This document shows positions 3,659-48,591 of a DNA stretch of 64,000 nucleotides, piece by piece. Source of the DNA: an uncultured Gemmatimonadaceae bacterium (GTDB lineage: Bacteria > Gemmatimonadota > Gemmatimonadetes > Gemmatimonadales > Gemmatimonadaceae); NCBI GenBank assembly GCA_963728115.1, contig CAVSJE010000004.1, forward strand, positions 30,982 through 94,981, written 5' to 3'. The notes beneath the pieces are model-generated. The model made no database searches and had not been told where the DNA came from. It worked only from the letters and a program-made list of their open reading frames with translations. The position numbers and the translations under genes are program-made. Numbering within the stretch: the first letter of the stretch is position 1; each line of letters starts with the position of its first letter.

Positions 3659-4230
3659 GATGGCGTCCCCGGCGCCGCCGGCCATCCGGTGGTCGGGAGC
3701 GCCCAATCGCCGGCCGGAACCCGACGCCCGCCCGTGCGCGGCCGGCAGACGTGGCCCCACGACCGGAGCTGATCCACCGCCAACTCCACCAGCCGGTCGA
3801 TCTTCTCGGCGACGCGGGGGGAGAGGCCGTCGCCCATCTCGAATCCCGCCGGCTGGAGGCCGATGGCGACGGTCACCGCCGGCAGGGTGCCGCGAAGCTG
3901 CGCGACGGCCAGCACGTCGCGCAGGTCGAGCTGGTGCGGGGAGAGCTTCATCGCCAACGCCCGCGGAATCTCGTCGCCCTCGAGCACCGCCTCGGTCCCC
4001 GGCGGCATGCCGGTGCGGATCGCGTCCAGAAAGAGCACGCGGTCCGCCGTCTCGATCATCGGCAGCAGCATCATCCCCCAGGTGCCGCCGTCCACCAACT
4101 CCACGCTCTCGGGCACCCGCCACCGGTCACGCAGCCGTTCCAGCGCTACGAGACCGGTGCCGTCGTCCCCGAGCAGGGGATTCCCGAGCCCGATGACCAG
4201 GTCGCCGTGGCGGGGTTCAGCCGTCGGCAT
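3646..4230 (-). CDS. hupD: Hydrogenase maturation endopeptidase (HyaD/HupD family)
   Basis: The sequence DLVIGLGNPLLGDDGTGLVA...VELVDGGTWGM...LFLDA is typical of the family. I chose the internal ATG at 4230 as the start; it overlaps the hupC end by 14 nt. Confidence 0.85.
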   Translation of the reverse strand: MPTAEPRHGDLVIGLGNPLLGDDGTGLVALERLRDRWRVPESVELVDGGTWGMMLLPMIETADRVLFLDAIRTGMPPGTEAVLEGDEIPRALAMKLSPHQLDLRDVLAVAQLRGTLPAVTVAIGLQPAGFEMGDGLSPRVAEKIDRLVELAVDQLRSWGHVCRPRTGGRRVPAGDWALPTTGWPAAPGTPSCTR

Positions 4231-4993
4231 AGTGCTCGTCGGTGGGCACGAACCGTCCCCCGCTGACGATGGACGACATCGTGCCGCTGCGTTCCAGCAG
4301 GTCGGCACGGATGGCGAGGTACACGTGCAGAATGATGAAGAACGGGAAGTACCAGGTGGCCACGTGGTGGATCACGCGCACGCCCTGGAATCCGCCCAGG
4401 TACGGCGCGAGGTGGCCCACCGTGTGCATGAACACGCCGTGCGGGTTGGCCTCACCGAACATGATGAACCCGGTGACCACCATGATGCCGGCCACCACGT
4501 AGGTGAAGGTGTAGGCCAACTGCTGCAGGGGATTGTGGCCGAGGTAGCGCGGCGAACGCTCGGGATGGATCATCAGGTAGAACTTGACCATCTTGACGAG
4601 GTTCACCCAATCCCGTTTGTGCACCGGGAACAGCGCCGGGAGCCGCTCGAAGCGATTGCCGGCGAAGAGCCAGTACACGCGGACGATCGCCGTGGCCACC
4701 AGCACGCCGGCGGCGATGAAGTGGACGAGGCGCACCCATTGCAGCCCGAAATTCGGGCTGGGTCCGACGGACAGGAAGTATGGCCGCCCGATCCAGAGCC
4801 CGGTGACGACGAGCGTGACGATGCTGATCGCCGCCGCCCAATGCATCGCGCGAATGGGCCAGTGCCACAGGTACACCCAGCGATGCTCGGGGTACCCGCC
4901 GCCGAGCGGTTGCTCATAGGTCGTCGTCAGCGCCCGCTGATCGATGGACGGCCAATGCGGTTCCCGCTGCTGCTTGGCGTCGCGGGGGTTCAT
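4217..4993 (-). CDS. hupC: Ni/Fe-hydrogenase b-type cytochrome subunit (HyaC/HupC family)
   Basis: 258 aa from the ATG at 4993, which overlaps the hupL stop as ATGA. It has four TM helices with conserved His residues (RAMHWAAA, HNPLQQ, RVIHHVATW, ILHVYLA). Confidence 0.85.
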   Translation of the reverse strand: MNPRDAKQQREPHWPSIDQRALTTTYEQPLGGGYPEHRWVYLWHWPIRAMHWAAAISIVTLVVTGLWIGRPYFLSVGPSPNFGLQWVRLVHFIAAGVLVATAIVRVYWLFAGNRFERLPALFPVHKRDWVNLVKMVKFYLMIHPERSPRYLGHNPLQQLAYTFTYVVAGIMVVTGFIMFGEANPHGVFMHTVGHLAPYLGGFQGVRVIHHVATWYFPFFIILHVYLAIRADLLERSGTMSSIVSGGRFVPTDEHYADG

Positions 4994-6705
4994 TGCACGC
5001 GCACCTCCGTCACCGTGTCCCCTTCGGCATCGAGCACGTGGACGCCGCAGGCGATACACGGATCGAACGAGTGGACCGTGCGCAGGATCTCGAGCGGCTG
5101 CTCGGGGTCCGCGAGCGGGTGGTTGTCGGTCAGCGCGGCTTCATACGGGCCGAGCTGGCCGCCGGCGTCGCGCGGCGACGCGTTCCACGTGGTGGGGACC
5201 ACGCACTGGTAGCGCGAGATCTTGCCGTCCTCGATCTCCACCCAGTGGCCGAGCGCGCCGCGCGGCGCATCGAGCACGCCGTAGCCGCGGCTGGTCTTGG
5301 GCCAGCTCGAGGGCTCCCACTTGGACTTGGCGAAGGTCGAGACGTCGCCGGCCTTGATGCGGGCCACGAGATTGTCGAACCAGACGCTCATCCGGCGGGC
5401 CAGCAGCACGGTTTCCATGCCGCGGGCGGCGGTCCGGCCGAGCGTCGAGAAGAGCGCGGCGGGCGGGGCATTCAGCGCCTTGAGTGTGTCGCCGACGATC
5501 TCCTTCACTTCCTTGTGACCGCTGGCGTAGGCCACGAGCATGCGCGCCAGCGGACCCACTTCCATGGATTTGCCGTCGTACCGTGGCGCCTTCATCCACG
5601 TGTACTTCTGCTCATCCTGGAGGTACGTCCAGGGAGCCGCCGGGCCGGTGTAGTGGGGCTTCGTCTCCCCTTCCCACGGGTGCAGCGCCGCCTCGGGCCC
5701 CTTGTCGTAGTCGTACCACGAACTGTGGATCGACTCGGTGACGCTCGTATGGTCGTACGGCAGCACCTTGCTCAGATCCTTGTTCATCACGATCCCGCGC
5801 GGCAGGTACAGCGAGTTGACGTCGCGGATGTCGGTCTCCGGGAACTCGCCCACGGAGAGGTAGTTGCCGGTGCCGCCGCCGATACCCGCCCACTCCTTGT
5901 AGTAGCCGGCGATGGCGACGAGATCGGGCCAGTACACCTGCTCGACGAACCGCTGGGCCCGGGTGATCATGTCCTTGATCTCGGTGAGCTTGGCGGCGTT
6001 GATCGTCGCCGTACCCTCGAGATTGATCGCGCTGGCCATGCCGCCCACGAGGAAGTTCGGGTGCGGGTTCTTGCCGCCGAAGATCGTGTGCAGGCGGATG
6101 ACGTCACGCTGCCAGTCGAGCGCCTCCAGATAGTGCGCCACGGCGAGGAGGTTGACCTCGGGCGGCAGCTTGTAGGCCGGGTGGCCCCAGTAGCCGTTGC
6201 TGAAGATCCCGAGCTGTCCGCTGCCCACGAACGTCTTCACGCGCTCCTGCACCTCGCGGAAGTGCGTGGGGGAGTTGTTGGGCCACGGCGAGATCGACGC
6301 CGCGATCTTCGCCGTCTGCGCTGGATCGGCCTTGAGGGCGCTCACCACGTCCACCCAGTCGAGCGCGTGCAGATGATAGAAGTGGATCACGTGATCCTGC
6401 ACGAACTGCATGCCGTGCACGAGATTCCGGATCGTATTGGCGTTCGGTGGAATGTGGATGTCGAGCGCGTCCTCCACGGCGCGGCACGACGCCACGGCGT
6501 GCACCACGGTGCAGACGCCGCAGATGCGCTGGGCGAACGCCCAAGCGTCACGCGGGTCGCGGCCCTGGAGCACGATCTCGATGCCCCGGAACTGCGTGGC
6601 CGACGCCCAGGCGTTGGCCACCTTGCCGTTCTCGGCCTGGGCCTCGATGCGCAGGTGCCCCTCGATGCGCGTGATCGGATCGATCACGACCTTAGTTTTC
6701 GCCAT
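4990..6705 (-). CDS. hupL: [NiFe] hydrogenase large subunit, group 1 (periplasmic uptake type)
   Basis: 571 aa. It carries the N-terminal RIEGHLRIE and RICGVCT motifs and the C-terminal DPCIACGVH motif, followed by a cleavable extension. It closely resembles HybC/HydB-like proteins. Confidence 0.97.
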   Translation of the reverse strand: MAKTKVVIDPITRIEGHLRIEAQAENGKVANAWASATQFRGIEIVLQGRDPRDAWAFAQRICGVCTVVHAVASCRAVEDALDIHIPPNANTIRNLVHGMQFVQDHVIHFYHLHALDWVDVVSALKADPAQTAKIAASISPWPNNSPTHFREVQERVKTFVGSGQLGIFSNGYWGHPAYKLPPEVNLLAVAHYLEALDWQRDVIRLHTIFGGKNPHPNFLVGGMASAINLEGTATINAAKLTEIKDMITRAQRFVEQVYWPDLVAIAGYYKEWAGIGGGTGNYLSVGEFPETDIRDVNSLYLPRGIVMNKDLSKVLPYDHTSVTESIHSSWYDYDKGPEAALHPWEGETKPHYTGPAAPWTYLQDEQKYTWMKAPRYDGKSMEVGPLARMLVAYASGHKEVKEIVGDTLKALNAPPAALFSTLGRTAARGMETVLLARRMSVWFDNLVARIKAGDVSTFAKSKWEPSSWPKTSRGYGVLDAPRGALGHWVEIEDGKISRYQCVVPTTWNASPRDAGGQLGPYEAALTDNHPLADPEQPLEILRTVHSFDPCIACGVHVLDAEGDTVTEVRVQ

Positions 6706-7849
6706 GGCTGTCCTCCCGGCCGGTTGCGCTCGGCGAGTGATCGGCGCGCGCTTCGGCGCGCCGCGAACGGATCTGATACAACCCCGTCGCCGCCGCGTGA
6801 GCGGCGACGCCGGCAGCGGCTCCGACGGCCAGCGCGGCCCCGAGGATGTCCGCCGTGTGCTCCACGCCCACGCCGGCCACGTTGGGCAGGCGGTTGTAGA
6901 ACGGCGTCATCGTATCCCAGAAATTGCGCTCGGTGCAGCCGATGCACGGGTGCCCGGCGCCGATCGGGAAGTCGGTGTGCGAATTCCACATGAAGATCGG
7001 ACAGGGCGAGAACGTGGCCGGCCCCTTGCAGCCCACTTCGTACAAGCACCAGCCCTCGCGGGCGCCATTGTCGTCGAAGGTGCGCACGAACTGGCCGGCG
7101 TCGTAGTGGGCCCGCCGCGGGCACTGATCGTGAATCCGGTTGCCGTAGGCGAACAGTGGCCGTCCGTCGGAATCGGTCTCGGGCAAGCGCCCGAAGGTGA
7201 GGAAGTGCACCACGGTCGCCGTGATCACGTCGGCAATCGGGGGGCAGCCGGCGATGTTGAGCACCGGCTTGTCCTTGATGATTTCCGAGACGCCCACCGC
7301 GCCGGTGGGATTCGGCTTCGCGGCCTGCACGCTGCCCCAGTGGGCACAGGCGCCCACGGCGATCACGGCCGCCGCGTCCTTGGCGGTCTCCTCGAGGAGC
7401 GTGCGCGCCGTCTTCCCGGCGATGGTGGTGTAGATCCCGTTCTCGTTGGTCGGCACCGAGCCGGTGACGATCAGCACGTACTTGCCGGCGTTCTCCTTGC
7501 GGGCATTCTCCAGCGCCTGCTCGGCGTGGTGCCCGGCCGCCGCCATGAGGGTATCCATGAAGTCGAGCGAGATCGTGTCGAGCACGAGGTCGCCGATGGT
7601 CGGATCCGCGGTGCGGATGACACTCTCCACGCACCCCGTGCATTCCTGCAATTGCAGCCAGATGACGCTGGGCCGCTTCAGGGCTTGCATGGCCTCGGCG
7701 ATTCGCGGCACCGCCAGGCTGCTGAGTCCGAGGACAGCGGCCATCTGTCCACAGAATTCGATGAAGTCGCGCCGGCTGATGCCGCGGCGGCCGAGAAATC
7801 CGCCAAGCGCCTCATCGTCTGACCACGCGTGCGTGGTTGGCGTGAGCAT
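6692..7849 (-). CDS. hupS: [NiFe] hydrogenase small subunit with Tat signal and C-terminal membrane anchor
   Basis: It has the twin-arginine motif SRRDFIEF, the proximal-cluster motif LQECTGCVES, and a C-terminal hydrophobic helix. I prefer the ATG at 7849 over the upstream GTG at 7882. Confidence 0.93.
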   Translation of the reverse strand: MLTPTTHAWSDDEALGGFLGRRGISRRDFIEFCGQMAAVLGLSSLAVPRIAEAMQALKRPSVIWLQLQECTGCVESVIRTADPTIGDLVLDTISLDFMDTLMAAAGHHAEQALENARKENAGKYVLIVTGSVPTNENGIYTTIAGKTARTLLEETAKDAAAVIAVGACAHWGSVQAAKPNPTGAVGVSEIIKDKPVLNIAGCPPIADVITATVVHFLTFGRLPETDSDGRPLFAYGNRIHDQCPRRAHYDAGQFVRTFDDNGAREGWCLYEVGCKGPATFSPCPIFMWNSHTDFPIGAGHPCIGCTERNFWDTMTPFYNRLPNVAGVGVEHTADILGAALAVGAAAGVAAHAAATGLYQIRSRRAEARADHSPSATGREDSHGEN

Positions 7850-8133
7850 GACACAACCCCCTAGGATGGGTTGGCGTAGCACGGCACCGCACGGTCGGCG
7901 TTTCCGATCCCGGATGCCGTTTGAATGGACGATCGCGTGTGTACATGATCGGGGGCCCCGCGGAAGGGGTACAGAAGCGAAAGCCTGAACCGGGTGCGGG
8001 GTTGCGCCGACGGGCCTGTGGGGGAAATGCTTACTCCGGGGGCGGCAAACGTCCGGCTGCGTCGGAAGCCCCCGTTCCGCGATACTCCTGCCCAGTCAGT
8101 GCAGCTTTCGTCGCCCACGACCCGAGGTCAGTC

Positions 8134-8583
8134 ATGTTCGAGCATTCCCGCGGCGCGTCGCGCGCCATCGGTCTCCTCGCGCTGCCGGCGCTGCTCGCCG
8201 CCGGCGCGTGCAAGCAGCAGGGCCAGGATCCGGCCAAGTTGCCCCTGTCCGCAATGGCGGCGGGAAGCACCGGGACGGCCAATCCGCACACCACGATGTC
8301 GCCCGAGGCCCGGGCGGCCCTGGACAGCGGCAACGCCCAGTACCGCGCCGGCAACTACGCCGCCGCCCTCAAGAGCTACCGCCAGTCGTCGGACCTCGCG
8401 CCGCTGAACGCCGCGCCCTTCTTCGGCATCTACATGGCCGCCGACAAGCTGGGCAACAAGGCGCTGGCCGACAGCGCGAGCGCCGAGATCAAGCGGCGCG
8501 AGAGCACGAGCACCGAGATGCTCACCGACAGCGCCCTCCGGAAGATGCACGAGACAGGCGCGAAGAAGCCGTCGGCAAACTGA
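8134..8583 (+). CDS. Small lipoprotein with a TPR-like repeat
   Basis: The ATG at 8134 gives MFEHSRGASRAIGLLALPALLAAGAC (lipobox LAAGAC). GNAQYRAGNYAAALKSYRQS looks like a TPR repeat. Confidence 0.5.
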   Translation: MFEHSRGASRAIGLLALPALLAAGACKQQGQDPAKLPLSAMAAGSTGTANPHTTMSPEARAALDSGNAQYRAGNYAAALKSYRQSSDLAPLNAAPFFGIYMAADKLGNKALADSASAEIKRRESTSTEMLTDSALRKMHETGAKKPSAN

Positions 8584-8601
8584 CCGCCCCGGCGAAGCAG
8601 C

Positions 8602-8642
8602 GAGGCACGGAGTCCCGGTTCGGGCTCCGTGCCTCGTTTCGT
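8602..8642. terminator. Strong GC hairpin between convergent genes (candidate bidirectional terminator)
   Basis: GAGGCACGGAG(T)CCCG-GTT-CGGGCTCCGTGCCTC gives 15 bp of pairing with one bulge. It is followed by GTTTCGT on the plus strand. Confidence 0.5.
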
Positions 8643-8679: not shown

Positions 8680-10224
8680 TCACTTCTTCAGCGGATTGGT
8701 CAGGTGGCACACGAGGCACATCTGCATGTTCCGCGACCCCATGGCCTCGGCGTTGAAGTCGGGCCCGTGCGGGTTGACGTGCAGCCCGAGGCTCGAGTGG
8801 CAGCGCAGGCAGTCTCGCTGCTGGTGGCAGGCAGTGCACGAGGCGAGCCCCTGGCGCGCGGCCTGTCCGTGCTGGAGCAGCCAGAGCGGCTGTCCGGTGT
8901 GCGCGGTGCCGCGGACTCCGCCGGTGTTGGCGATCCCGGACTTCTGGTGGCACGACCGGCAGAACGTTTCCACGCGGTGACAGGTGCTGCAGTTCTGTTC
9001 CTGCGCGTAGGCGCTCGTGGCGTGCCGCGCCATGAAGTCGGCCGGATGGTAGTTGCCGCGGGTGGAGACGCCGTCGTGACAGGCGGTGCAGTCGCGGGGC
9101 TGGTGGCAGCCCTGGCAGTTCAGCTGCCCGCTCGCCGCCACCGTCTTGTGGTTGGTGGCGAACCCGTCGGGATGGACGTGGACCACCGCTGACCGCACGG
9201 TGTCGCGGCCGCTGGCCAGCAACACCGGCCCCGCGGCCGCCGCCGGTGCCGGCGCGGACCGGGCGGCGAGCATGGCCGGGCCGGCGGCGGGCGGCGCCGC
9301 GCGCTGGCCGGCGTGGATGAGCACGACCCCAGGGGCGCGCCCGGGCTTGGGCTCGGGCAATTGGTCGATCACGTCGCGCCCCATCTGCCCGGTATGGCAG
9401 CTGGTGCAGCTGGTGCGTGTGTGACAGCTGGCGCAGGTCTGCGGCGCGGCGCGGGCGCCGGCCGCGTGCGCGTAGCTCCAGGTGTACGCCTTGTGGGACG
9501 CCGGTGTGAAGTACGCCGGCTCGACGCCGCGCTCCAACTCGGCCACCCGCGCGTCATGGTCGAGCGCCTGGATGGCGGGGAGCCGTTCCGCGTTCGCGTG
9601 ACAGCGTTCGCAACTTTCCCGGGCGTGACAGATGGCGCACTGGGCAATCTGGGCGTCGTTCTTCGGCGCGTGCGTGGCCAGCCAGGTTGGATCGCTATGC
9701 GACGCCGGCTTCGGGAACGCCGCGATGGTGGCCGCCGAAAGGTTGGCCGCCTGCACCAGCGTCTTGTGGCAGGTCTTGCAATCCGCCGAGGCCGCCAGAT
9801 GCTCCGGCGCCTGATGGCGGTGGCAGGCGATGCAGGCGCTCGGATTGGCACCGGCCACGTGCATCCACGCCGTATCGGTCCCCGCCTGCTGGCCGTGACA
9901 GTTCACGCACGTGGCGGGCGACCCGCCCTGGGCCGACATCAATTCATGGTCGGTGTGCGAGAACTTGAGATTGGTGGCGCGTTCCACGTGCCCGCTCCAC
10001 GCCACGCGGCGGACGTCGGTGCCGTTGTGGCACTGGGCGCAGGCGTCCGATGTCGGAAACATGCGGGCCGAATCGCCGTCGGTGATTCCGGCATGGCATC
10101 CGGCGCAGGTCGGGAAGAGTTTCGCGTGCCGCGCGTGCGGAAACGCTCCCCGCGGCTGTTGGGTGCCGAGGGTGGCGGTGGCCACCGCGAGCACCAGCGG
10201 GACGAGCAGGCGTCGAATCTTCAT
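8680..10224 (-). CDS. Periplasmic 16-haem c-type cytochrome
   Basis: The ATG at 10224 overlaps the stop of the upstream gene as ATGA. It has a Sec signal (MKIRRLLVPLVLAVATATLG) and 16 CxxCH motifs, many as paired CxxCH-x4/5-CxxCH units. Confidence 0.9.
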   Translation of the reverse strand: MKIRRLLVPLVLAVATATLGTQQPRGAFPHARHAKLFPTCAGCHAGITDGDSARMFPTSDACAQCHNGTDVRRVAWSGHVERATNLKFSHTDHELMSAQGGSPATCVNCHGQQAGTDTAWMHVAGANPSACIACHRHQAPEHLAASADCKTCHKTLVQAANLSAATIAAFPKPASHSDPTWLATHAPKNDAQIAQCAICHARESCERCHANAERLPAIQALDHDARVAELERGVEPAYFTPASHKAYTWSYAHAAGARAAPQTCASCHTRTSCTSCHTGQMGRDVIDQLPEPKPGRAPGVVLIHAGQRAAPPAAGPAMLAARSAPAPAAAAGPVLLASGRDTVRSAVVHVHPDGFATNHKTVAASGQLNCQGCHQPRDCTACHDGVSTRGNYHPADFMARHATSAYAQEQNCSTCHRVETFCRSCHQKSGIANTGGVRGTAHTGQPLWLLQHGQAARQGLASCTACHQQRDCLRCHSSLGLHVNPHGPDFNAEAMGSRNMQMCLVCHLTNPLKK

Positions 10225-11777
10225 GGCCGCCTCACCGGACCGACGGTCCACGAACCGGTCCCCGGTTCCCCGCCCACCCGCCACTCGAGGCGCAGGCTGG
10301 CGCGGCGCTGGTTCCAGTCCGCGAGGTCGGGTTCGTTCCGGCCCGTGTGGTGATACAGGGTGGCATCGCCGACCAGGCGCAGGTCCGGCCGAATCCGGTA
10401 GGCGCCCTCGAGGCCGGTGCCCCACACGCGCCCCTCACCCACCGAGAATTCGTAGATGTTCTGGAACGCCGTCCCGTGGACGGCCAGGGAACCGCGATCG
10501 CTGGGTTGCCAGCGGATCGAGACATCGCCGTCGGTGCTCGACGCCCCGAAATTGATGTCCATGTCGTAGCTGCCCTGCACCGACCAGGCATCGGTGGCGC
10601 GGAGGGAGCCGTTGGCCCCCACGCGCCAGCCGCTGGTGCGGAGCGGGAGCGAGGCGACGCCGGTGTACGTGTCCGCGTATGAGCGGTATCCGCCGGTGAG
10701 GCCGAACGCCATCCGGGTGCCGGGCGTGCTCCAGTTGAGATTCCCGGTCATCTCGTTGTAGCCCACCGGTGAGAACGCCCCCCAGATGGTCCACAGATCG
10801 AAGTAGGGTGAGTAGTGACGGAATTCGAGGCGGGACCCGATGCGGTGCCAGGGATTGAAGGCGACGTGCGCCGTCAGATCGTTGAAGGTCTCGGTGGCCA
10901 GATCGCGCGTCGCCGCCCCGCCGAAGCTGGCGAGCGAGGAGCGGAATTCGGCGGTCGCCGCCAGTCGCTCCGAGTACAGCGCACCCCGATCGTTCCGGAT
11001 CTCCCGCTGGTACTGCACCTGCACGGCGGTTCCCGGTCCCGGCCGGAACTGCATGGTACCGCCCACCAGGAACGACTTGTCCACGGGCGGGATGTCCTCC
11101 ACCGGGGAGAGGGCGGCGGCGCCGAGCGGGCGGTCGAGCCCCTGCACGAGCGTGCCGCCGCCGTAGGCACTGAGGCCCAGCATCGGAATCGGGCGCACGG
11201 TCACCGACGCCCCGTCGAAGTTGAAAACGCCGAGCGCGGAGGTGACCCACTGCCGTCCGAGGCGGGCCAGCACCGGCGCGCGGTCGTACTCGGCGTACGC
11301 GGCCAGGACGTCGAAGTTCTGGTTGGCCTGCGGCCAGAGATCGCGGGCGTCGCCCTGGGCGGTTCGTCCTCGCAATTGCGCATGGATGCTGAGCCCGGGC
11401 CGCAGCCCCCACGCCGTCACGTCGAGGTCCTGCATCAGCGCCGTGAGGCTGGCGCGTGGTGCCGAGCGGTAGAAATAGCAGTACGGGTCGCCCACCGTGC
11501 ACGTGGTGATCACGCCGCTCGGCGTCCGGCGGAAGAGCGTCGACACCGAGTCGGTGGAGCCGAACGGCACACTGTCCGTCACCAGGGGCCGCATATCGAG
11601 GAACTGCGCCCAACTCGAGCCCTGGATGACGTATCCCTGGGCACGTGCCGGCGCCGCCGACACCGTGGGCAGTCCGACGGCGAGCGCGGCCCAGAGCATG
11701 CGCCGCGTCCATCGAGCCAGCCCCTTCGGTCGAGATCCACGGCCACTGGCGTCGTGTGCTCGATCGCGCGCGATCAT
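10221..11777 (-). CDS. Predicted outer-membrane beta-barrel protein of unknown family
   Basis: The ATG at 11777 has GGAGG 6 nt upstream. A long signal peptide ends AAPARAQG. It has many amphipathic alternating strands (AVQVQYQREIRN, IGSRLEFRHY, MAFGLTGGYRSY, DVSIRWQP, LRLVGDATLYHH) and is rich in G, Y, W and R. Confidence 0.6.
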   Translation of the reverse strand: MIARDRAHDASGRGSRPKGLARWTRRMLWAALAVGLPTVSAAPARAQGYVIQGSSWAQFLDMRPLVTDSVPFGSTDSVSTLFRRTPSGVITTCTVGDPYCYFYRSAPRASLTALMQDLDVTAWGLRPGLSIHAQLRGRTAQGDARDLWPQANQNFDVLAAYAEYDRAPVLARLGRQWVTSALGVFNFDGASVTVRPIPMLGLSAYGGGTLVQGLDRPLGAAALSPVEDIPPVDKSFLVGGTMQFRPGPGTAVQVQYQREIRNDRGALYSERLAATAEFRSSLASFGGAATRDLATETFNDLTAHVAFNPWHRIGSRLEFRHYSPYFDLWTIWGAFSPVGYNEMTGNLNWSTPGTRMAFGLTGGYRSYADTYTGVASLPLRTSGWRVGANGSLRATDAWSVQGSYDMDINFGASSTDGDVSIRWQPSDRGSLAVHGTAFQNIYEFSVGEGRVWGTGLEGAYRIRPDLRLVGDATLYHHTGRNEPDLADWNQRRASLRLEWRVGGEPGTGSWTVGPVRRP

Positions 11778-11840
11778 CGTCGCCTCCGGTACCGCTGCAC
11801 CGGTTCGAGGTCCGGGCACCGGGCCCTGGGGCCCGGTGCT

Positions 11841-11878
11841 GGTGCGGGCCGGGAAGGTGTTCGTTCCCGGCCCGCACC
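11841..11878 (-). terminator. Perfect 15-bp GC hairpin between cytochrome A and the beta-barrel gene (attenuator or mRNA-stability element)
   Basis: GGTGCGGGCCGGGAA-ggtgttcg-TTCCCGGCCCGCACC. No U-tract follows it. Confidence 0.4.
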
Positions 11879-11914
11879 GAGTGAGTCTACTGCGTCATGC
11901 CAGCCCCGCCCCGA

Positions 11915-13360
11915 TCACTTGTGGAACATCGTGGGCAGGATGTTGTTGAGGTTCACGCCAACCTGCGGCGCGATGCCATAGTCCTTCTGCATCTGGTTGA
12001 TGCTCGCCGTCAGCAGCGCCTCGATGAGGAACGGGTTGTGAACCACCGACCCCGGCTCCTCGGCGAGTTGCAGATTGAACTGCGCGCCCTTGGCGGTGGT
12101 GAGCGTGGTGCTCACCGCCAGCTCCGCCGGATCCACCTGCGCCAGCTGGTGCGCCAGCGTCGAGTCGAGGAGCGCCAGGCGCCCCCGCGTGGCCGTCAGT
12201 GCCGACTGGGCGACGGCGTCGCTGCCGTGGCAGCCGCTCGCCGTGCAGGCGCTGAAGGAGCGTGCCGAGATATCGCACGTGTTGTCCGTGGTCGGCAGCC
12301 CGCTGGCATCGAGACACGGGATGGCGACGAACAGGTGGCCGGTCGCCTGGAAGGCGAAGTTGCCGGTGTTCGGATCGGTGACCGTGAAGCGGTTGACGTG
12401 ACAGGTCACGCAGAGGCCAGGATTACGGCTCGACCCGTGGGTAGCAACGATGGTGTCGGGCAGATTGAGCTGGGTGCCCGGGGGCCACCAACCAGCGGTT
12501 CCGATGAGGAGTGGGCCTTCCGGCGAGTGCGGCCCGTGGGTGTTGGTCGGGTCGGCCACCGCGTTCCGCTGGTGGCACTTCATGCACAGGTTCTGCGTCG
12601 GGTCCGTGCTGTTGATCGGGAACCGAAGCTGGGCCGGATTGTCGCTGCCGTGCGGATCGTGGCACACCGCGCAGACGATCGGCAGCGGGTTGGTGGCGAC
12701 CTGGTCCTTCTCGAGATAGGCCGTGTTGACGTTGAAGGCCGCCAGCGCACCTTGCGCCGTGTGGCAGGGCTGGCAACTCGCGTTCCCCATCGCGTGCGAG
12801 TTCATCTGCCCGTGCATCGACTGCTTCCACTCGTCGACGAACGGTTCGTGCGTGCCGCTGTGGCATTCGCCGCAGCCATCGCCGAACGCCGCACCGGTAT
12901 CGACGGCGATCGAGGCCAACGGACGATTGCCGAGCCCTGGCGAGGTGATGTGGGCCAGCCCCGGGCCGTGGCAGCTCTCGCACTGCACGTCTTCGTAGCG
13001 CGCGTCGTGCGTGGAGGTGTAGCCGACCTGATCCTGCGTGACCGCGTTGCCGTTCTTGCTGATCGTGTGGCAGGGTTCGCAGGAGGCGCCGGCGTGCCCG
13101 CTGGCCTGCAGGTCGGCCCATGCCGAGGCGTGCTTCGTGCCGGCCCACTGCCCCTGCTTCTCGACGTGACAGTTGCCGCAGACGGTCTGCTTGGTGACCG
13201 TGTCGGAGTACCCGACGAAGTCACCCGCCGCCGTCGGGGGCGTCGTGAAACTCGGCTCGCTCCGGTAGACGATCTTTTCGCTGGTACACGAAGAGGCGAC
13301 CACCGCTGCGATCAGCACCGCGGTAAGCCGCCCCAAAACCGGATTTCTCGAGACTCTCAT
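11915..13360 (-). CDS. Multihaem c-type cytochrome lipoprotein, paralogue A (8 CxxCH plus 1 CxxxxCH)
   Basis: The start at 13360 was chosen by homology to paralogue B (MRVSRNPVLGRL). It has the lipobox VASSC, eight CxxCH motifs (CGNCH, CEPCH, CESCH, CGECH, CQPCH, CAVCH, CMKCH, CVTCH) and one CTASGCH. Confidence 0.9.
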   Translation of the reverse strand: MRVSRNPVLGRLTAVLIAAVVASSCTSEKIVYRSEPSFTTPPTAAGDFVGYSDTVTKQTVCGNCHVEKQGQWAGTKHASAWADLQASGHAGASCEPCHTISKNGNAVTQDQVGYTSTHDARYEDVQCESCHGPGLAHITSPGLGNRPLASIAVDTGAAFGDGCGECHSGTHEPFVDEWKQSMHGQMNSHAMGNASCQPCHTAQGALAAFNVNTAYLEKDQVATNPLPIVCAVCHDPHGSDNPAQLRFPINSTDPTQNLCMKCHQRNAVADPTNTHGPHSPEGPLLIGTAGWWPPGTQLNLPDTIVATHGSSRNPGLCVTCHVNRFTVTDPNTGNFAFQATGHLFVAIPCLDASGLPTTDNTCDISARSFSACTASGCHGSDAVAQSALTATRGRLALLDSTLAHQLAQVDPAELAVSTTLTTAKGAQFNLQLAEEPGSVVHNPFLIEALLTASINQMQKDYGIAPQVGVNLNNILPTMFHK

Positions 13361-13493
13361 ATCTACTCTCCGCACACCGTTGGGGGACGTGGGATCAGAC
13401 TGCCCTGCGTTCGCTACTCCGGCTGCTCCAATTCGATTCGTTCTCGTAACGCCTTCGAGTGACGCGAAATGTGGTGTCTGCTCGAATGCCCCA

Positions 13494-13522
13494 CCGTCGG
13501 AGGATGCCGGAGTTTTGTGGGG
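13494..13522 (-). promoter_or_regulatory. Conserved 29-nt upstream box, copy 1, about 135-160 nt upstream of cytochrome A
   Basis: On the plus strand it reads CCGTCGGaggatgCCGGAGTTTTGTGGGG. It matches 25 of 29 positions of the box at 15284-15312. Confidence 0.35.
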
Positions 13523-13637
13523 GAAAGCCCTACGCGCGCGTCATCCGTTTCCCACTCCCGGCGTTACTATAGGTAGCACCGTGACGGCAGACGGCAATAC
13601 CGGTTCTCCCTCAGTCCATCCGGCTGCGGGACGACGA

Positions 13638-13673
13638 CAGGGGGTGGAGCCGGTATGCTGGCTTCACCCCCTG
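13638..13673 (-). terminator. GC hairpin 22-57 nt downstream of the cytochrome B stop
   Basis: A CAGGGGGTG/CACCCCCTG 9-bp stem is extended by an inner GAGCC/GGCTT pairing, with an 8-nt loop. Confidence 0.45.
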
Positions 13674-13694
13674 CCGCCCACCCATCCCCACTCG

Positions 13695-15143
13695 TTAGCG
13701 GTAGTTGGCCGCTCCCTGCGGCAGAATGTTGGCGAGATTCACGCTGATCGTCGGCGCGATCCCGTAGTCCGTCTGGATCTGCTGGATGCTCTTGGTGAGC
13801 AGCGTTTCCATCAGGAACGGATTGTGGACTTCACTGCCCGGCTTCTCGGCCAGTTGCAGATTGAACTTTGCCCCGATGGCCGAATTCATGGTCGTGCTCT
13901 GGAATTCGGTGGCCGGGATCTGAACGAGCTGGCTGTTCAGCGCCGAGTCGAGCAGCGCGAGCCGGCCGGTGACCGCGGTCCAGGCCGACCGAGCGGCGGC
14001 GGGGCTGCCGTGGCAACCACTGGTGGCGCAGGCCGAGAAGGAACGCTGCGAGATGTCGCACTCGCCCGTGGTCGGGACGCCGTTGGCGTCCAGGCACGGG
14101 GCGGCGGCGAACGTGTGCCCCTGGTAGCTGACCACGAACCCACCGGTCGAGTCGGTGATCGTCTGCGTACCCATGTGGCAGGTCACGCAGAGTTTCGCGT
14201 TGGCCGATGAGCCGTGCGTGCCGATGATGGTATCCGGCCCGGTGTAGTTGGCCGGGAAGTAGCCCGCGTAGCCGAGGAGGACCGGACCTTCCGGCGCCAT
14301 CGGGGCGTGGCTGCTCGCCGGGGCGACCGGCTTGCCATTCCGCTGGTGGCAGCGCATGCAGAGGTTGGCAGCGGTGTCGGGGACGTCGACCGGGTAGCGC
14401 AGCTGGGCGACGTTCGGACCGCCGTGCGGGTCGTGGCAAACCGCGCAGGTGATCCCCATCGGGTTGGTGGCTTCCTCGGTGGCTTCCTTGTAGTTGGTGT
14501 TCACGCCCCAGGCGGTCAGGGCGTCCTGGCCGACGTGGCAGTTCGTGCACGCGGCGTTGCCGAGCGCGTGCGCTTCCAGATGCGCGTGGCCGGCATCCTT
14601 GGTCTGGACCCACTCGTCGACGAAGGGATCGTGCGTGCCGGTGTGGCACTCCCCGCACCCGTCGCCGAACGCGGCGCCGGTGTCGACCGCGATCGAGGCC
14701 AACGGGCGGTTGGACAGCCCGGGCGCCGTGACGTGCGTCAGGCCGGCGCCGTGGCAGCTCTCGCACTGGACGTCCTCGTACCGAGTGTCGTTCGTGGAGA
14801 GGTAGCCGGACGCCGAATCGGGCGAGGCGTTGCCGTTGGAGTTCACGGTATGGCAGGGGGCGCACGAGGCGCCGGCGTGGCCGCTGGCCTGGAGATCCGC
14901 CCAGGCATTCGCATGCTTGGTGGTGGACCACTTGGCCTGCTGGTCCACGTGACAATTGCCGCACACGGTCTGCTTGGTGACCGTGTCCGCGTACCCGACG
15001 AAGTTCGCGGCCGCCGCTGGCGGCGTCGTGAAGCTCGGTTCGCTCCGGTAGGCGATTCGTTCGCTGGTACACGAGGAGACGACGACCGCGCCGACCAACA
15101 GCGCGATCAGCCGTCCCAGCACCGGACTCGTAGAGGATTTCAT
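13695..15143 (-). CDS. Multihaem c-type cytochrome lipoprotein, paralogue B (8 CxxCH plus 1 CxxxxCH)
   Basis: The ATG at 15143 gives MKSSTSPVLGRLIALLVGAVVVSSC (lipobox). It is colinear with paralogue A and, by eye, about two-thirds identical. Confidence 0.9.
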   Translation of the reverse strand: MKSSTSPVLGRLIALLVGAVVVSSCTSERIAYRSEPSFTTPPAAAANFVGYADTVTKQTVCGNCHVDQQAKWSTTKHANAWADLQASGHAGASCAPCHTVNSNGNASPDSASGYLSTNDTRYEDVQCESCHGAGLTHVTAPGLSNRPLASIAVDTGAAFGDGCGECHTGTHDPFVDEWVQTKDAGHAHLEAHALGNAACTNCHVGQDALTAWGVNTNYKEATEEATNPMGITCAVCHDPHGGPNVAQLRYPVDVPDTAANLCMRCHQRNGKPVAPASSHAPMAPEGPVLLGYAGYFPANYTGPDTIIGTHGSSANAKLCVTCHMGTQTITDSTGGFVVSYQGHTFAAAPCLDANGVPTTGECDISQRSFSACATSGCHGSPAAARSAWTAVTGRLALLDSALNSQLVQIPATEFQSTTMNSAIGAKFNLQLAEKPGSEVHNPFLMETLLTKSIQQIQTDYGIAPTISVNLANILPQGAANYR

Positions 15144-21907: not shown

Positions 21908-21910
21908 GGG

Positions 21911-37944: not shown

Positions 37945-38412
37945 GTGACCTCTCCGGCGGCGGACCCCGACAACGGCGGCGTGTCATGGGAGGCCGGTTT
38001 CAGCGAGCACCTGCTCGGCGGCATCATCATCCTGATGGTGGTGGCCGCGGCGCTGATCGGCTTCCTGTACCTGCTGCCCCCCGAGCGCCTCCAGCTTCCC
38101 GAACTGCAACCCGCGTTCGTCGTCGCCCCGGTCGCGCAATTCCCGGTGGGTGCGAGTCGCGTGGTGGACTGGGGGGAACAGGTCATTCTCGTCGTCCGGA
38201 CGGGCGAACAGGCGTACTCCGGCGTGCAGGGCGCTTCCCCCGCCGACGGATGCATCCTGGACTGGGATCCGACCTCGCTCCGCGTGCTCTCGCCGTGCAG
38301 CTACATCGTCTATGATCTGCAGGGCAACGTCGTCCGCGGATTGACCACGGTGCCGCTCCAGCGGTACCCGGTGTTCGTGCGCGATTCCGTCGTCTACGTG
38401 GGGAGGCCATAG
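37945..38412 (+). CDS. Rieske-fold protein with degenerate cluster-binding boxes (no Cys/His ligands)
   Basis: The GTG start is preceded by GGAAGGAG. It has one N-terminal TM helix. The C-terminal region aligns to the Rieske boxes as SPADGC-x12-SPCSYIVYDLQGNVVRG. Confidence 0.7.
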   Translation: MTSPAADPDNGGVSWEAGFSEHLLGGIIILMVVAAALIGFLYLLPPERLQLPELQPAFVVAPVAQFPVGASRVVDWGEQVILVVRTGEQAYSGVQGASPADGCILDWDPTSLRVLSPCSYIVYDLQGNVVRGLTTVPLQRYPVFVRDSVVYVGRP

Positions 38413-38413
38413 C

Positions 38414-39703
38414 ATGCTCGGTCGTGCATGGAAGGCCGTGATGGCCTGGGCCGGGCGGTTCTGGGACGATCTCAAGTCGAGCACCGACGCCAGCCTGCTC
38501 TCGTTCCTGCGATTCCTGGGGCTGCTGTACGGGCGCATCGACACCCGGCTGCCCATCGATCAGGCGTTCCGCAAGGCGCTGAACCACAGGATGTCGCGGC
38601 ACACCGGCTGGCGGCAGGCCTTCGGCGGCATCACCTATCTGCTGTTCATGGTGCTCGTCGTCACCGGTGTGTTGCTCTCGTTCTACTATCGGCCGTCGGC
38701 CGAGGAGGCGTACCAGAGCATCCAGCACGTCGTCACCGGGGTGAGCCTCGGCTGGCTCATGCGCGACATGCACGTCTGGGCGGCCAACCTCGTGGTCCTC
38801 GCGGCGCTGGTGCACATGGGGCGCGTGTTCTTCGATGCCGCCTACAAGCCGCCCCGCGAAACGAACTGGCTCATCGGACTGCTCCTGCTGTTCGTGATCT
38901 TCGCCTTCGGCGCCACGGGCTACCTCCTGCCGTGGGATCAGTGGTCCTACTGGACGGTGACGGAGGGGTTGAGCATCCTCGGCCACGTGCCGCTCGTCGG
39001 CGGTGCGCTGGTGGAGATCCTGCGCGGCGATCCCCTGGTTACCGGGGCCACGCTGAGCCGGTTCTTCGCCCTCCACGTGATCGTACTGCCGTGGCTCGCC
39101 CTGGGGTTGTTGGTGCTGCACTTCGCGCTCGTACGGAAGCACGGCATCGCCCCGCCCCGGGATCTGCCGGCCGACGAGGCCGGCGCGCCCGATGCATCGG
39201 GCGTTCCGTTCTTCCCCAACCATTTCCTCCGTTCGCTCATCGTGGGCGTGCTCGTGTTGACGGTGGTGATCACGGCCGCGGCGCTCTATCCCCGCGATCT
39301 GGCGGCGCCGGCAAGCGCCGCCCAACCGCCGGAGACGCTGCGTTCCACCTGGATCGTGGCCGACGTGTCGCGGGCTCTGTTCTACTACCTGGGGGCCTGG
39401 GGCTTCATCGGCTTCGTCGCCCTGGGAGCGGTCATGGTGCTGCTGCCGCTCTTCGATCGATCGGCGGAACGCCGGCTGCGAAAGCGTCCGTTGGTGGCCG
39501 GGCTCGGCATCGTCTTCTTCGCGGGATTCTTCGTCGCGTGGGCCGCCGGATGGCAACTCCGGTCGGTGCCGGTCGCGACCTCCGGCGAATTGGCGCCGGT
39601 CATCCAGCCCCTGTCGGCGCCGGGGCCCACGCTTCCGCGCTTCACGCCACTGGCTCCGACCGCGCAACCGGCGGGCACGACGAGCACGAGGGTTCCGAAA
39701 TGA
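38414..39703 (+). CDS. Cytochrome b, b6-type, fused with a subunit-IV-like C-terminal half
   Basis: 429 aa. It has His pairs H-x13-H (RDMHVWAANLVVLAALVHMGR) and H-x14-H (LHVIVLPWLALGLLVLHF), and the motif YLLPWDQWSYW. Confidence 0.9.
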   Translation: MLGRAWKAVMAWAGRFWDDLKSSTDASLLSFLRFLGLLYGRIDTRLPIDQAFRKALNHRMSRHTGWRQAFGGITYLLFMVLVVTGVLLSFYYRPSAEEAYQSIQHVVTGVSLGWLMRDMHVWAANLVVLAALVHMGRVFFDAAYKPPRETNWLIGLLLLFVIFAFGATGYLLPWDQWSYWTVTEGLSILGHVPLVGGALVEILRGDPLVTGATLSRFFALHVIVLPWLALGLLVLHFALVRKHGIAPPRDLPADEAGAPDASGVPFFPNHFLRSLIVGVLVLTVVITAAALYPRDLAAPASAAQPPETLRSTWIVADVSRALFYYLGAWGFIGFVALGAVMVLLPLFDRSAERRLRKRPLVAGLGIVFFAGFFVAWAAGWQLRSVPVATSGELAPVIQPLSAPGPTLPRFTPLAPTAQPAGTTSTRVPK

Positions 39704-40962: not shown

Positions 40963-40966
40963 GGTC

Positions 40967-46248: not shown

Positions 46249-46252
46249 GGCA

Positions 46253-48387: not shown

Positions 48388-48591
48388 CGCGCCCGCTACT
48401 CTCCGCTCCGGCCAATGACGAGGGCGTGTCCTACTGCGATCGGACCCGCCCTCCGGTTGCAATCGTTTCACGGTGACCTGTCCGCTGTACGTTCGCGTTT
48501 GGCTCGCCTGGATTCTCGAAGCACCTGCTCGTTCATCAGTTTCGGCCGTCCTGCAGCCACCGATAAGGAACGGCCGCGGGTGCATTGCAAC

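What the first reader, a model, noticed from the sequence alone, without database searches (positions are those of the whole stretch)
8680..15143. Porin-cytochrome-like outer-membrane electron conduit candidate
In transcription order the genes are lipoprotein cytochrome B (8-9 haems), lipoprotein cytochrome A (8-9 haems), a roughly 518-aa predicted beta-barrel, and a Sec-exported 16-haem cytochrome that is translationally coupled (ATGA) to the barrel gene. The parts list is lipoprotein cytochrome, porin-like barrel and periplasmic multihaem cytochrome. That is the logic of Shewanella MtrCAB and Geobacter OmaB/OmbB/OmcB (Pcc) conduits, but I see no obvious sequence resemblance to either, and the haem counts differ. 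If real, it would be a distinct lineage of extracellular electron transfer machinery in a high-GC bacterium that also respires aerobically with cbb3.
Basis: partly seen in the sequence, partly recalled or inferred. Interest (0 to 1): 0.8.

Follow-up and report, generated by a model that had tools for sequence, protein, structure and literature searches.

The report
Gemmatimonadota porin-cytochrome electron conduit candidate
A four-gene cluster, conserved in several hundred species of the common soil phylum Gemmatimonadota, pairs a large outer-membrane barrel with a 16-haem cytochrome and lipid-anchored 9-haem cytochromes, and it most likely carries respiratory electrons across the outer membrane, although no experiment has tested this.

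Summary
On the minus strand lie two paralogous lipoprotein cytochromes (8 CXXCH plus 1 CX4CH each), a signal-peptide protein that AlphaFold models as a ~24-strand beta-barrel, and a 16-CXXCH cytochrome whose ATG overlaps the barrel stop (ATGA).

The barrel has no Pfam or NCBIfam match. Its family is small: 511 clusters among 1.84 billion representatives, and 413 species loci, of which the 80 examined are nearly all labelled Gemmatimonadota. In 70 of 70 informative loci the 16-haem gene follows the barrel directly. In 55 of 64 a lipoprotein cytochrome lies upstream.

Most relatives carry a NapC/NirT-type membrane-anchored 17-haem cytochrome between the lipoprotein and the barrel. The window's clade has a second lipoprotein copy there instead.

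The lipoprotein cytochromes are closest to OmhA and OcwA, the surface iron reductases of Gram-positive bacteria, not to MtrC. An uptake [NiFe] hydrogenase adjoins the cluster here and lies within 10 kb of the barrel in 16 of 36 loci.

The best reading is a porin-cytochrome conduit of a new lineage that is not a member of Mtr. No model was available to test Geobacter Pcc membership. Surface exposure, threading through the barrel and direction of electron flow are untested. I found no published description.

The parts
13695..15143 (-). cytB: lipoprotein nonahaem cytochrome c (8 CXXCH plus CX4CH), 482 aa, first gene of the operon
   Evidence: Motif count and lipobox VSSC|T. Pfam Cytochrome_C7, c554 and Paired_CXXCH. 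Orthologue 85-87% identical at the same position in L001, L002 and L007.
11915..13360 (-). cytA: paralogous lipoprotein nonahaem cytochrome c, 481 aa. It occupies the slot where most relatives have a NapC/NirT-type 17-haem membrane cytochrome.
   Evidence: Family profile is closest to OmhA 6qvm (8.7e-16) and OcwA 6i5b (3e-11). All 38 aligned homologues have 8 CXXCH plus 1 CX4CH; lipobox in 36 of 38 by pattern, and the other two have ASASC and LTVTC.
10221..11777 (-). Outer-membrane beta-barrel of about 24 strands. Alternative start at ATG 11699. Signal peptide ends ...SAAPARA|QG.
   Evidence: AF2 pLDDT 80.2, pTM 0.73, 24 long strands. Foldseek finds only OM barrels: FimD usher TM 0.50, MtrB TM 0.43. 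No Pfam or NCBIfam hit. 413 species loci; the 80 examined are nearly all labelled Gemmatimonadota.
8680..10224 (-). Sec-exported 16-haem cytochrome c, translationally coupled to the barrel (ATGA). It is a 9-haem module, an Ala/Pro-rich variable linker, then a 7-haem module.
   Evidence: 16 invariant non-motif His for 16 haems. About 31 aa per haem. The spacing between haems 9 and 10 varies from 53 to 123 aa while all other spacings are nearly fixed.
8601..8636 (.). Perfect 12-bp GC-rich hairpin (CGAGGCACGGAG...CTCCGTGCCTCG) between the convergent ends of the 16-haem gene and the TPR gene. It is probably a bidirectional terminator that ends the operon.
   Evidence: Read directly from the sequence. 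The consensus terminator scan missed it because there is no T-run.
8131..8583 (+). Small TPR lipoprotein, convergent with the operon. It is a recurrent neighbour and its role is unknown.
   Evidence: Weak TPR hits. Homologues about 2.6 kb downstream of the barrel in 23 loci.
4217..7882 (-). Uptake [NiFe] hydrogenase: Tat-exported small subunit (6692-7882), large subunit (4990-6705), cytochrome b subunit (4217-5059). A linked module, not part of the conduit itself.
   Evidence: Pfam and NCBIfam. Large subunit closest to A. vinosum MBH 3myr (1.8e-232). The large subunit lies within 10 kb of the barrel in 16 of 36 loci with long flanks.
37945..42997 (+). Candidate inner-membrane feeder 1: a weakly Rieske-like protein, cytochrome b (petB type), a roughly 9-haem cytochrome, and a 21-haem cytochrome with a NapC/NirT/NrfH N-terminus.
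   Evidence: The same genes lie directly downstream of barrel-cyt16 in L011 and L014.
44848..48678 (-). Candidate inner-membrane feeder 2: an 11-haem cytochrome, an FdnI/HydC-like dihaem cytochrome b, and a 14-haem cytochrome.
   Evidence: The same trio lies directly downstream of cyt16 in L006, and near the barrel module in L026 and L051.

Best explanation
The cluster most likely encodes a trans-outer-membrane porin-cytochrome conduit that is specific to Gemmatimonadota.

Shown:
- The barrel protein is exported and folds as an outer-membrane barrel of about 24 strands.
- Its gene is translationally coupled to an all-bis-His 16-haem cytochrome, a pure electron carrier at about 31 residues per haem.
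- One or two lipid-anchored 9-haem cytochromes of the OcwA/OmhA type are co-transcribed upstream.
- In most relatives a NapC/NirT-type membrane-anchored 17-haem cytochrome is encoded in the same operon.

Inferred mechanism:
- Electrons leave the (mena)quinol pool through an inner-membrane multihaem quinol dehydrogenase. In most relatives this is the NapC-like protein. In this genome it is probably one of the two cytochrome b plus multihaem clusters at 37.9-48.7 kb.
- The electrons pass to the 16-haem protein. One of its modules sits in the barrel lumen, as MtrA sits in MtrB, and the other reaches into the periplasm on a flexible linker.
- They then reach the lipoprotein nonahaem cytochromes on the cell surface, which reduce an external acceptor such as Fe(III) or Mn(IV) oxides, humics, or a soluble oxyanion.
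- The adjacent uptake hydrogenase suggests that H2 is a preferred electron donor.
- The same hardware could run in reverse as an Fe(II) or electron uptake route feeding the cbb3 oxidase.
For: Barrel:
- AF2 mean pLDDT 80, about 24 strands.
- Foldseek hits are exclusively OM barrels. The 24-strand FimD is best and MtrB is among them.

Coupling and conservation:
- ATGA overlap in the window. A 4-nt overlap and 16 haems recur in most of 80 species loci.
- cyt16 is directly downstream in 70 of 70 loci. A lipoprotein cytochrome is upstream in 55 of 64.
- A distant family member, P0495, keeps the order lipoCyt, NapC-like, barrel, cyt16 with 4-nt overlaps.
- The NapC/NirT domain is above the Pfam threshold in the intervening gene, which is present in about 58 loci.

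Cytochrome properties:
- 16 invariant distal His for 16 haems.
- The lipoprotein family is closest to OmhA (8.7e-16) and OcwA (3e-11), both extracellular Fe(III) reductases (PMC9250108).
- Lipobox conserved.

Neighbours:
- The cytochrome maturation ccm operon, cytochrome b and multihaem modules, and the hydrogenase recur as neighbours.

Established knowledge: MtrCAB, PioAB, Geobacter Pcc, PCC3 and PCC4 show the same gene logic (PMC5566968).
Against: - No direct evidence places the 16-haem protein in the barrel. AF2 of cyt16 was poor (pLDDT 63) and gave no fold matches, and no multimer prediction was possible.
- Surface exposure of the lipoproteins cannot be read from sequence. They could face the periplasm.
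- The variable Ala/Pro linker splits cyt16 into two modules, unlike the single rigid wire of MtrA.
- The window's clade has lost the operon-encoded NapC-like quinol dehydrogenase, so the inner-membrane entry point here is conjecture.
- The lipoprotein alignment has only 6 invariant distal His for 9 haems. Open-coordination, enzyme-like haems are therefore possible.
- No cultured organism or phenotype is linked to the cluster.
Confidence: 0.6

Rival explanations
1. This is a periplasmic respiratory reductase system, not a trans-membrane conduit. The OcwA/NrfA-superfamily nonahaem lipoproteins would be periplasm-facing enzymes, for example nitrite, hydroxylamine, sulfite or tetrathionate reductases. 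They would be fed by the NapC/NrfH-like quinol dehydrogenase through the 16-haem shuttle. The barrel would merely import the substrate or export the product.
For: - The lipoprotein family belongs to the NrfA/HAO/c554/MccA/OcwA homologous group, with weaker hits to HAO, ONR, NrfA and MccA.
- Only 6 invariant distal His for 9 haems.
- OcwA itself reduces nitrite and hydroxylamine in vitro (PMC9250108).
- NrfH-like partners are typical of periplasmic NrfA systems.
Against: - The closest solved relatives by a wide margin are the two extracellular iron reductases (E of 1e-15 and 1e-11, against 1e-3 or weaker for the enzymes).
- There is no CXXCK motif.
- A substrate porin would not need strict translational coupling to a 16-haem electron carrier in 70 of 70 loci.
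- A 24-strand barrel is much larger than the 16-18-strand substrate porins.
Confidence: 0.15
2. The hardware is a porin-cytochrome conduit, but its physiological direction is inward. It would take up electrons from Fe(II), Mn(II), minerals or cathodes, as MtoAB and PioAB do, and feed the quinone pool or bc-type complex and the cbb3 oxidase. The lipoproteins could act as periplasmic relays.
For: - A cbb3 high-affinity oxidase is in the same window.
- Cytochrome b and Rieske-like modules lie next to the barrel module in several genomes, as described for PCC4 in Fe(II) oxidisers (PMC5566968).
- The architecture does not determine direction.
Against: - The cluster is linked to an uptake hydrogenase, which is an electron source rather than a sink.
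- The OcwA/OmhA-type terminal cytochromes are known from metal reducers.
- NapC/CymA-type proteins usually oxidise quinol.
- No carbon-fixation or Fe-oxidiser marker was examined.
Confidence: 0.15
3. The 16-haem protein is an HmcA-like periplasmic electron hub for the neighbouring periplasmic hydrogenase. It would store or distribute H2-derived electrons among periplasmic partners. The barrel would be an unrelated co-transcribed outer-membrane protein.
For: - It has the same haem number as HmcA.
- The profile's best PDB hits are the Desulfovibrio 16-haem HmcA proteins, 5e-9.
- There is a weak NCBIfam HmcA hit.
- The hydrogenase is adjacent in the window and lies within 10 kb of the barrel in 16 of 36 loci.
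Against: - The similarity covers only residues 41-163, a c7/c3-type module that is also shared with ACIII ActA.
- The NCBIfam score is 22.6 bits against a cut-off of 400.
- The hydrogenase has its own cytochrome b subunit.
- More than half of the loci have no hydrogenase nearby, whereas the barrel is always adjacent.
Confidence: 0.07

Closest known systems
MtrCAB, MtoAB and PioAB (Shewanella, Sideroxydans, Rhodopseudomonas)
   Same: The parts list matches: a lipoprotein multihaem cytochrome, a large OM barrel, and a densely packed periplasmic multihaem cytochrome encoded next to the barrel. Haem density is about 31 aa per haem, like MtrA. MtrB appears among the fold matches (TM 0.43).
   Different: - The barrel has no MtrB_PioB Pfam match in any of 50 homologues.
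- About 24 strands rather than 26.
- 16 haems in two modules rather than 10.
- The gene order has the barrel before the cytochrome.
- The outer cytochrome is OcwA/OmhA-like, not MtrC/OmcA-like.
- Scores against the DmsE/MtrA model are 38-44 bits against a cut-off of 192.
Geobacter Pcc (OmbB-OmaB-OmcB) and the Ext clusters
   Same: The gene order is barrel then periplasmic cytochrome. The outer cytochrome is a lipoprotein. The system is independent of Mtr.
   Different: - Haem counts differ: 8 and 12 in Pcc, against 16 and 9 here.
- No match above threshold to the Geobacter-derived NCBIfam models (GSU2203 family 39 bits against 325; ExtKL 11 bits against 250).
- Homology of the barrel to OmbB could not be tested, because no model or sequence was available.
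OcwA (Thermincola potens) and OmhA (Carboxydothermus ferrireducens), surface multihaem iron reductases
   Same: - These are the best solved-structure relatives of the lipoprotein cytochromes.
- Nine haems, as in OcwA.
- The C-terminal helical segment VHNPF...LLTAS aligns with OcwA.
- 6 conserved distal His are compatible with OcwA's mix of bis-His and open haems. That haem coordination is from my own knowledge, not a tool result.
   Different: - The known proteins are cell-wall or S-layer proteins of monoderm Firmicutes without a porin.
- Here the homologues are lipoproteins of a diderm, encoded with an OM barrel.
- Sequence identity is low.
PCC3, PCC4 and the Verrucomicrobia PCC: putative conduits predicted from gene clusters (PMC5566968, PMC5615132)
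   Same: The inference logic is the same. Periplasmic haem counts are large (a median of 21 in PCC3). An inner-membrane redox protein is encoded alongside. Cytochrome b or bc-type genes are sometimes adjacent.
   Different: - Different phyla (Proteobacteria, Verrucomicrobia).
- Different haem numbers.
- Those clusters have a conserved 5-TM dihaem inner-membrane protein rather than a NapC-type multihaem.
- No OcwA-like component is reported for them.
- Sequence relationship to those porins was not tested.
HmcA, the 16-haem high-molecular-weight cytochrome of Desulfovibrio
   Same: 16 haems, a periplasmic location, association with hydrogen metabolism, and similarity of the N-terminal c7/c3-like module.
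   Different: - Only a partial alignment.
- 22.6 bits against a cut-off of 400 for the family model.
- HmcA docks on an inner-membrane HmcBCDEF complex, not on an OM barrel.

Membership tests
Porin-cytochrome conduit (functional class) | Outer-membrane beta-barrel of 20 or more strands | tested here: met
   AF2 pLDDT 80, about 24 strands. Foldseek top hits are all OM barrels. A signal peptide is present.
Porin-cytochrome conduit (functional class) | Barrel gene adjacent to, and co-conserved with, a periplasmic multihaem cytochrome gene | tested here: met
   ATGA overlap. 70 of 70 loci. 16 haems conserved.
Porin-cytochrome conduit (functional class) | Lipoprotein or extracellular multihaem cytochrome in the cluster | tested here: inconclusive
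   Lipobox and co-occurrence are met (55 of 64 loci; lipobox). Exposure on the cell surface cannot be tested with these tools.
Porin-cytochrome conduit (functional class) | Cytochrome inserted in the barrel lumen; electrons cross the outer membrane | not testable with these tools
   No multimer prediction was available. The monomer model of cyt16 was poor.
MtrCAB / PioAB / MtoAB | Barrel belongs to MtrB_PioB (PF11854) | tested here: not met
   No hit at E up to 1 for the window protein or any of 50 homologues.
MtrCAB / PioAB / MtoAB | Periplasmic decahaem of the DmsE/MtrA family (TIGR03508) | tested here: not met
   cyt16 has no TIGR03508 hit. cytA and cytB score 43.6 and 37.7 bits against a cut-off of 192.2. 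cyt16 has 16 haems, not 10.
MtrCAB / PioAB / MtoAB | Outer cytochrome of MtrC/OmcA type | tested here: inconclusive
   PF22113 scores are just above its 30-bit threshold (37.6, 34.4 and 32.5), but only as partial stretches, and they also occur in cyt16. The closest structures are OmhA and OcwA; MtrC did not appear among the hits.
Geobacter Pcc (OmaB/OmbB/OmcB) | Homology to OmbB, OmaB (8 haems) and OmcB (12 haems) | not testable with these tools
   No OmbB model or sequence was to hand. Haem counts differ. The GSU2203-family model scores 38.9 bits against 325.
OcwA/OmhA clade of the NrfA-c554 multihaem superfamily | Sequence or profile similarity to OcwA/OmhA exceeding that to other superfamily members | tested here: met
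   6qvm 8.7e-16 and 6i5b 3e-11, against HAO 1e-3, ONR 3e-3 and NrfA 0.24.
OcwA/OmhA clade of the NrfA-c554 multihaem superfamily | Nine (OcwA) or eleven (OmhA) haems, including two penta-coordinate haems | tested here: inconclusive
   Nine motifs in all 38 homologues. Six invariant non-motif His are compatible with this, but haem coordination cannot be assigned without a structure.
HmcA (NF045713) | Full-length match to the 16-haem HmcA model | tested here: not met
   22.6 bits against a cut-off of 400. The PDB profile hit covers only residues 41-163.

The most novel reading that the evidence does not exclude
Gemmatimonadota, one of the most abundant soil phyla, carry their own phylum-wide outer-membrane electron conduit. 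It is built from an unrelated 24-strand barrel, a two-module 16-haem wire, and OcwA/OmhA-type terminal reductases previously known only on Gram-positive cell walls. It is genetically wired to an uptake hydrogenase. On this reading these bacteria respire minerals or humics with H2 when oxygen runs out.
Probability: 0.25. Interest if true: 0.8.

Novelty: new variant of a known kind. Interest (0 to 1): 0.6.

Why it matters
- **Ecology.** Gemmatimonadota are abundant in soils and sediments, but their anaerobic physiology is almost unknown. Published genome surveys credit them only with sporadic, horizontally acquired MtrCAB and generic FeGenie hits (PMC8805035, PMC11316326). A vertically conserved conduit in at least 413 species would make extracellular electron transfer a core trait of the phylum. 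That would bear on soil Fe and Mn cycling and on H2 turnover.
- **Mechanism.** It would be an independent solution to moving electrons across an outer membrane. It would also be the first link between the OcwA/OmhA terminal reductases of monoderms and a diderm porin system.
- **Detection.** Current marker-gene tools would miss it, because the barrel matches no curated family.

Tried and rejected
- **AF2 on the 16-haem protein.** A 50-sequence alignment gave only pLDDT 63, with residues 304-468 below 50. Foldseek against the PDB returned nothing. No conclusion about its shape is possible.
- **Sequence searches with the barrel profile.** The PDB search gave only a chance RAD52 hit at E 0.74. Pfam scans of 50 homologues gave nothing meaningful.
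- **tblastn of the barrel against PLSDB plasmids.** No match.
- **Consensus promoter and terminator scan.** It was uninformative in this 70% GC DNA. The hairpin after the operon was found by eye.
- **Literature.** Seven full-text queries found no description of this cluster. The 2026 karst paper reports porin-cytochrome clusters in 36 metagenome-assembled genomes but does not assign any to Gemmatimonadota in the text I could read.
- **Possible Tat signal in the barrel's N-terminal extension (WTRRMLW).** I considered this and rejected it as implausible for a beta-barrel. The extension is also absent from most homologues.
- **Treating the hydrogenase as part of the same operon.** Rejected. A convergent TPR gene and a strong hairpin separate them.


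Full report
**Observation**

ORF listing and motif counting confirm four co-directional genes on the minus strand.
- cytB, 13695-15143: 8 CXXCH plus CATSGCH.
- cytA, 11915-13360: 8 CXXCH plus CTASGCH.
- A haem-free ORF, 10221-11777.
- A gene with 16 CXXCH motifs, 8680-10224.

cytA and cytB begin with a basic n-region, a hydrophobic core and a lipobox (VVASSC and VVVSSC). The 16-haem protein begins MKIRRLLVPLVLAVATATLG and has no lipobox cysteine. Its ATG overlaps the TGA of the preceding gene, giving ATGA.

The only correction concerns the barrel start. An identical database protein is called from ATG 11699 (492 aa), while two close homologues are called at 518 aa. Either way the cleavage site is ...SAAPARA|QG.

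A perfect 12-bp GC hairpin at 8601-8636 separates the operon's end from a convergent small TPR lipoprotein gene. The cytochrome-barrel genes therefore form their own transcription unit, distinct from the hydrogenase genes beyond it.

**The barrel**

- It matches no Pfam or NCBIfam family, and neither do 50 of its homologues. MtrB_PioB is among the families it fails to match.
- With a 50-sequence alignment, AlphaFold2 gives mean pLDDT 80.2 and pTM 0.73. The model is all-beta with 24 long strands.
- Foldseek against the PDB returns only outer-membrane barrels. The 24-strand FimD usher is best (TM 0.50). AlgE, MOMP, the Occ porins, FepA and MtrB (rank 31, TM 0.43) follow.
- From standard barrel geometry, which is inference rather than measurement, 24 strands give a backbone diameter of about 4 nm. 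That is comparable with MtrB and wide enough for a haem wire.
- Two cysteines (C67 and C74 of the mature-numbered alignment) are invariant.

**Distribution and synteny**

- The barrel family is small and taxonomically narrow. It has 459 hits in 5.8 billion proteins and 511 clusters among 1.84 billion representatives by exhaustive HMM search.
- It has 413 loci among GTDB species genomes. I examined the best 80, and nearly all are labelled Gemmatimonadota.
- The 16-haem gene starts within -60 to +400 nt of the barrel's end in 70 of 70 loci with enough downstream sequence. It usually shows the same 4-nt overlap and almost always has 16 haems.
- A lipoprotein cytochrome of the cytA/cytB family lies upstream on the same strand in 55 of 64 loci. 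Twelve loci have two copies.
- A distant family member from a metagenome keeps the same four-gene order with overlapping stops and starts.

**What the window's clade has lost**

In about 58 loci, a gene of 600-700 aa sits between the lipoprotein cytochrome and the barrel. It encodes an N-terminal membrane anchor, a NapC/NirT domain above the Pfam threshold, and 17-19 haems.

The canonical operon therefore encodes a putative quinol dehydrogenase, a periplasmic wire, a barrel and a lipoprotein cytochrome. That is a complete route from the quinol pool to the outer membrane. In the window and its nearest relatives (L001-L009, L024, L039), that slot holds a second lipoprotein cytochrome instead.

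Likely substitutes exist elsewhere in the window.
- A cluster at 37.9-43.0 kb encodes cytochrome b, a roughly 9-haem cytochrome and a 21-haem NapC/NrfH-like cytochrome.
- A cluster at 44.8-48.7 kb encodes an 11-haem cytochrome, an FdnI-like cytochrome b and a 14-haem cytochrome.

In other genomes these modules neighbour the barrel module. The first lies immediately downstream of barrel-cyt16 in L011 and L014. The second follows cyt16 directly in L006 and lies close to the barrel module in L026 and L051. This argues for a functional connection.

**The cytochromes**

The 16-haem family:
- It has 16 invariant histidines outside the motifs, enough for bis-His ligation of every haem. It is an electron carrier, not an enzyme.
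- Motif spacing is nearly invariant except between haems 9 and 10. There an Ala/Pro-rich segment varies from 53 to 123 residues. The protein is therefore two rigid modules (9 plus 7 haems) on a tether.
- Its density of about 31 residues per haem equals that of MtrA-type wires (PMC5566968).
- Its profile hits the Desulfovibrio 16-haem HmcA and ACIII ActA, but only over an N-terminal c7-like module. It fails the HmcA family cut-off by a wide margin.

The lipoprotein family:
- It always has 8 CXXCH plus 1 CX4CH.
- Its closest solved relatives are OmhA (8.7e-16) and OcwA (3e-11). HAO, MtrA and ONR come in near 1e-3.
- OcwA and OmhA are the cell-surface iron-oxide reductases of Gram-positive thermophiles. 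They belong to the NrfA/c554 homologous group (PMC9250108).
- Only six non-motif histidines are invariant. This is compatible with OcwA-like open haems. It also keeps an enzymatic role possible.

**Context**

- The operon is embedded in a hydrogenase locus. hypF, hypB, a HycI-type protease, and the cytochrome b, large and Tat-signal small subunits of an uptake [NiFe] hydrogenase lie on one side. hypCDE lie on the other.
- The hydrogenase large subunit lies within 10 kb of the barrel in 16 of 36 loci with long flanks, in more than one arrangement.
- The ccm cytochrome maturation operon lies upstream in about 20 loci.
- The window also encodes a cbb3 oxidase with fused CcoN-CcoO, and a V/A-type ATPase.

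**Interpretation**

The evidence fits a porin-cytochrome conduit. The barrel is in the right compartment and of the right size. Its gene is welded to that of a dedicated electron wire. Lipid-anchored cytochromes related to known extracellular reductases accompany it. Ancestrally, a quinol dehydrogenase is encoded in the same operon.

The system is not a member of the Mtr/Pio/Mto family, because the defining models were tested and not met. Membership of Geobacter Pcc could not be tested for the barrel, and the haem counts differ.

Three things are not shown: threading of the cytochrome through the barrel, outward orientation of the lipoproteins, and the direction and substrate of electron flow. 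The rivals, with my estimates, are:
- a periplasmic OcwA/NrfA-like reductase system (0.15);
- an inward, Fe(II)-oxidising conduit (0.15);
- an HmcA-like hydrogenase partner with an unrelated barrel (0.07).

**Novelty**

Predicting new porin-cytochrome types from gene clusters is an established genre: PCC3 and PCC4 (PMC5566968) and the Verrucomicrobia cluster (PMC5615132). The kind is therefore known. This lineage appears undescribed, within the limits of the searchable literature. Its features are a family-less 24-strand barrel, a tethered 9+7-haem wire, OcwA/OmhA-type lipoproteins, a NapC-multihaem fusion, linkage to a hydrogenase, and restriction to Gemmatimonadota among the loci examined. 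I rate it a new variant of a known kind, of moderate to high interest because of the abundance of the phylum in soils.

Noticed in passing
window 37945-42997 (+): A second respiratory cluster: a 155-aa weakly Rieske-like protein, a petB-type cytochrome b, a roughly 9-haem cytochrome with a C-terminal anchor (about 39703-40962), and a 676-aa 21-haem cytochrome with a NapC/NrfH/TorC-like N-terminus. The same genes lie directly after barrel-cyt16 in L011 and L014.
   Followed up: partly
window 44848-48678 (-): An 11-haem cytochrome, an FdnI/HydC-like dihaem cytochrome b, and a 14-haem cytochrome. The arrangement resembles a split CbcL. It lies directly downstream of cyt16 in L006, and near the barrel module in L026 and L051.
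   Followed up: partly
L012 8178-9989; similar genes in about 58 loci: The canonical operon has a NapC/NirT-anchored 17-19-haem cytochrome between the lipoprotein cytochrome and the barrel. The window's clade replaced it with a duplicate lipoprotein cytochrome.
   Followed up: yes
window 8680-10224, protein residues about 285-350: An Ala/Pro-rich linker of variable length (the haem 9 to haem 10 spacing is 53-123 aa across homologues) splits the 16-haem protein into 9-haem and 7-haem modules. 18-haem variants insert an extra CXXCH pair here.
   Followed up: partly
window 11915-13360 and 13695-15143, residues just after the lipid-modified Cys: A conserved segment follows the lipobox cysteine: C-[TV]-x-E-K-I-V-Y-R...PP.AAA.FVGY, present across the family. 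It could be a docking strand or a sorting signal.
   Followed up: no
window 10221-11699, barrel residues 67 and 74: An invariant cysteine pair (C...YC) lies in an excursion between the first strands of the barrel, suggesting a conserved disulfide-stapled loop.
   Followed up: no
window 11699-11777: The barrel start is ambiguous. The longer form adds an N-terminal extension containing WTRRMLW, which superficially resembles a twin-arginine motif. Most homologues lack the extension.
   Followed up: partly
window 8131-8583 (+): A small TPR lipoprotein is convergent with the operon. Homologues recur about 2.6 kb downstream of the barrel in 23 loci, in either orientation. It might be an assembly factor.
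   Followed up: partly
L014 2340-7147 and about 20 other loci: A System I cytochrome c maturation operon (ccmA, B, C, E, F-like ORFs) lies directly upstream of the cluster in many relatives. It is not near the cluster in this window. The assignment is from the N-terminal sequences and ORF sizes only, not from a family scan.
   Followed up: no
window 29152-31677 (+): The CcoN and CcoO subunits of the cbb3 oxidase are fused in one 841-aa ORF (COX1 plus FixO domains), followed by FixP and FixG.
   Followed up: partly
window 43077-44843 (+): A B12-binding radical SAM protein is wedged between the two multihaem clusters. It keeps this position, in the opposite orientation, in L011 and L014.
   Followed up: no
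window 19426-27677 (+): A V/A-type ATPase operon lies between the hydrogenase-cytochrome locus and the cbb3 oxidase.
   Followed up: no
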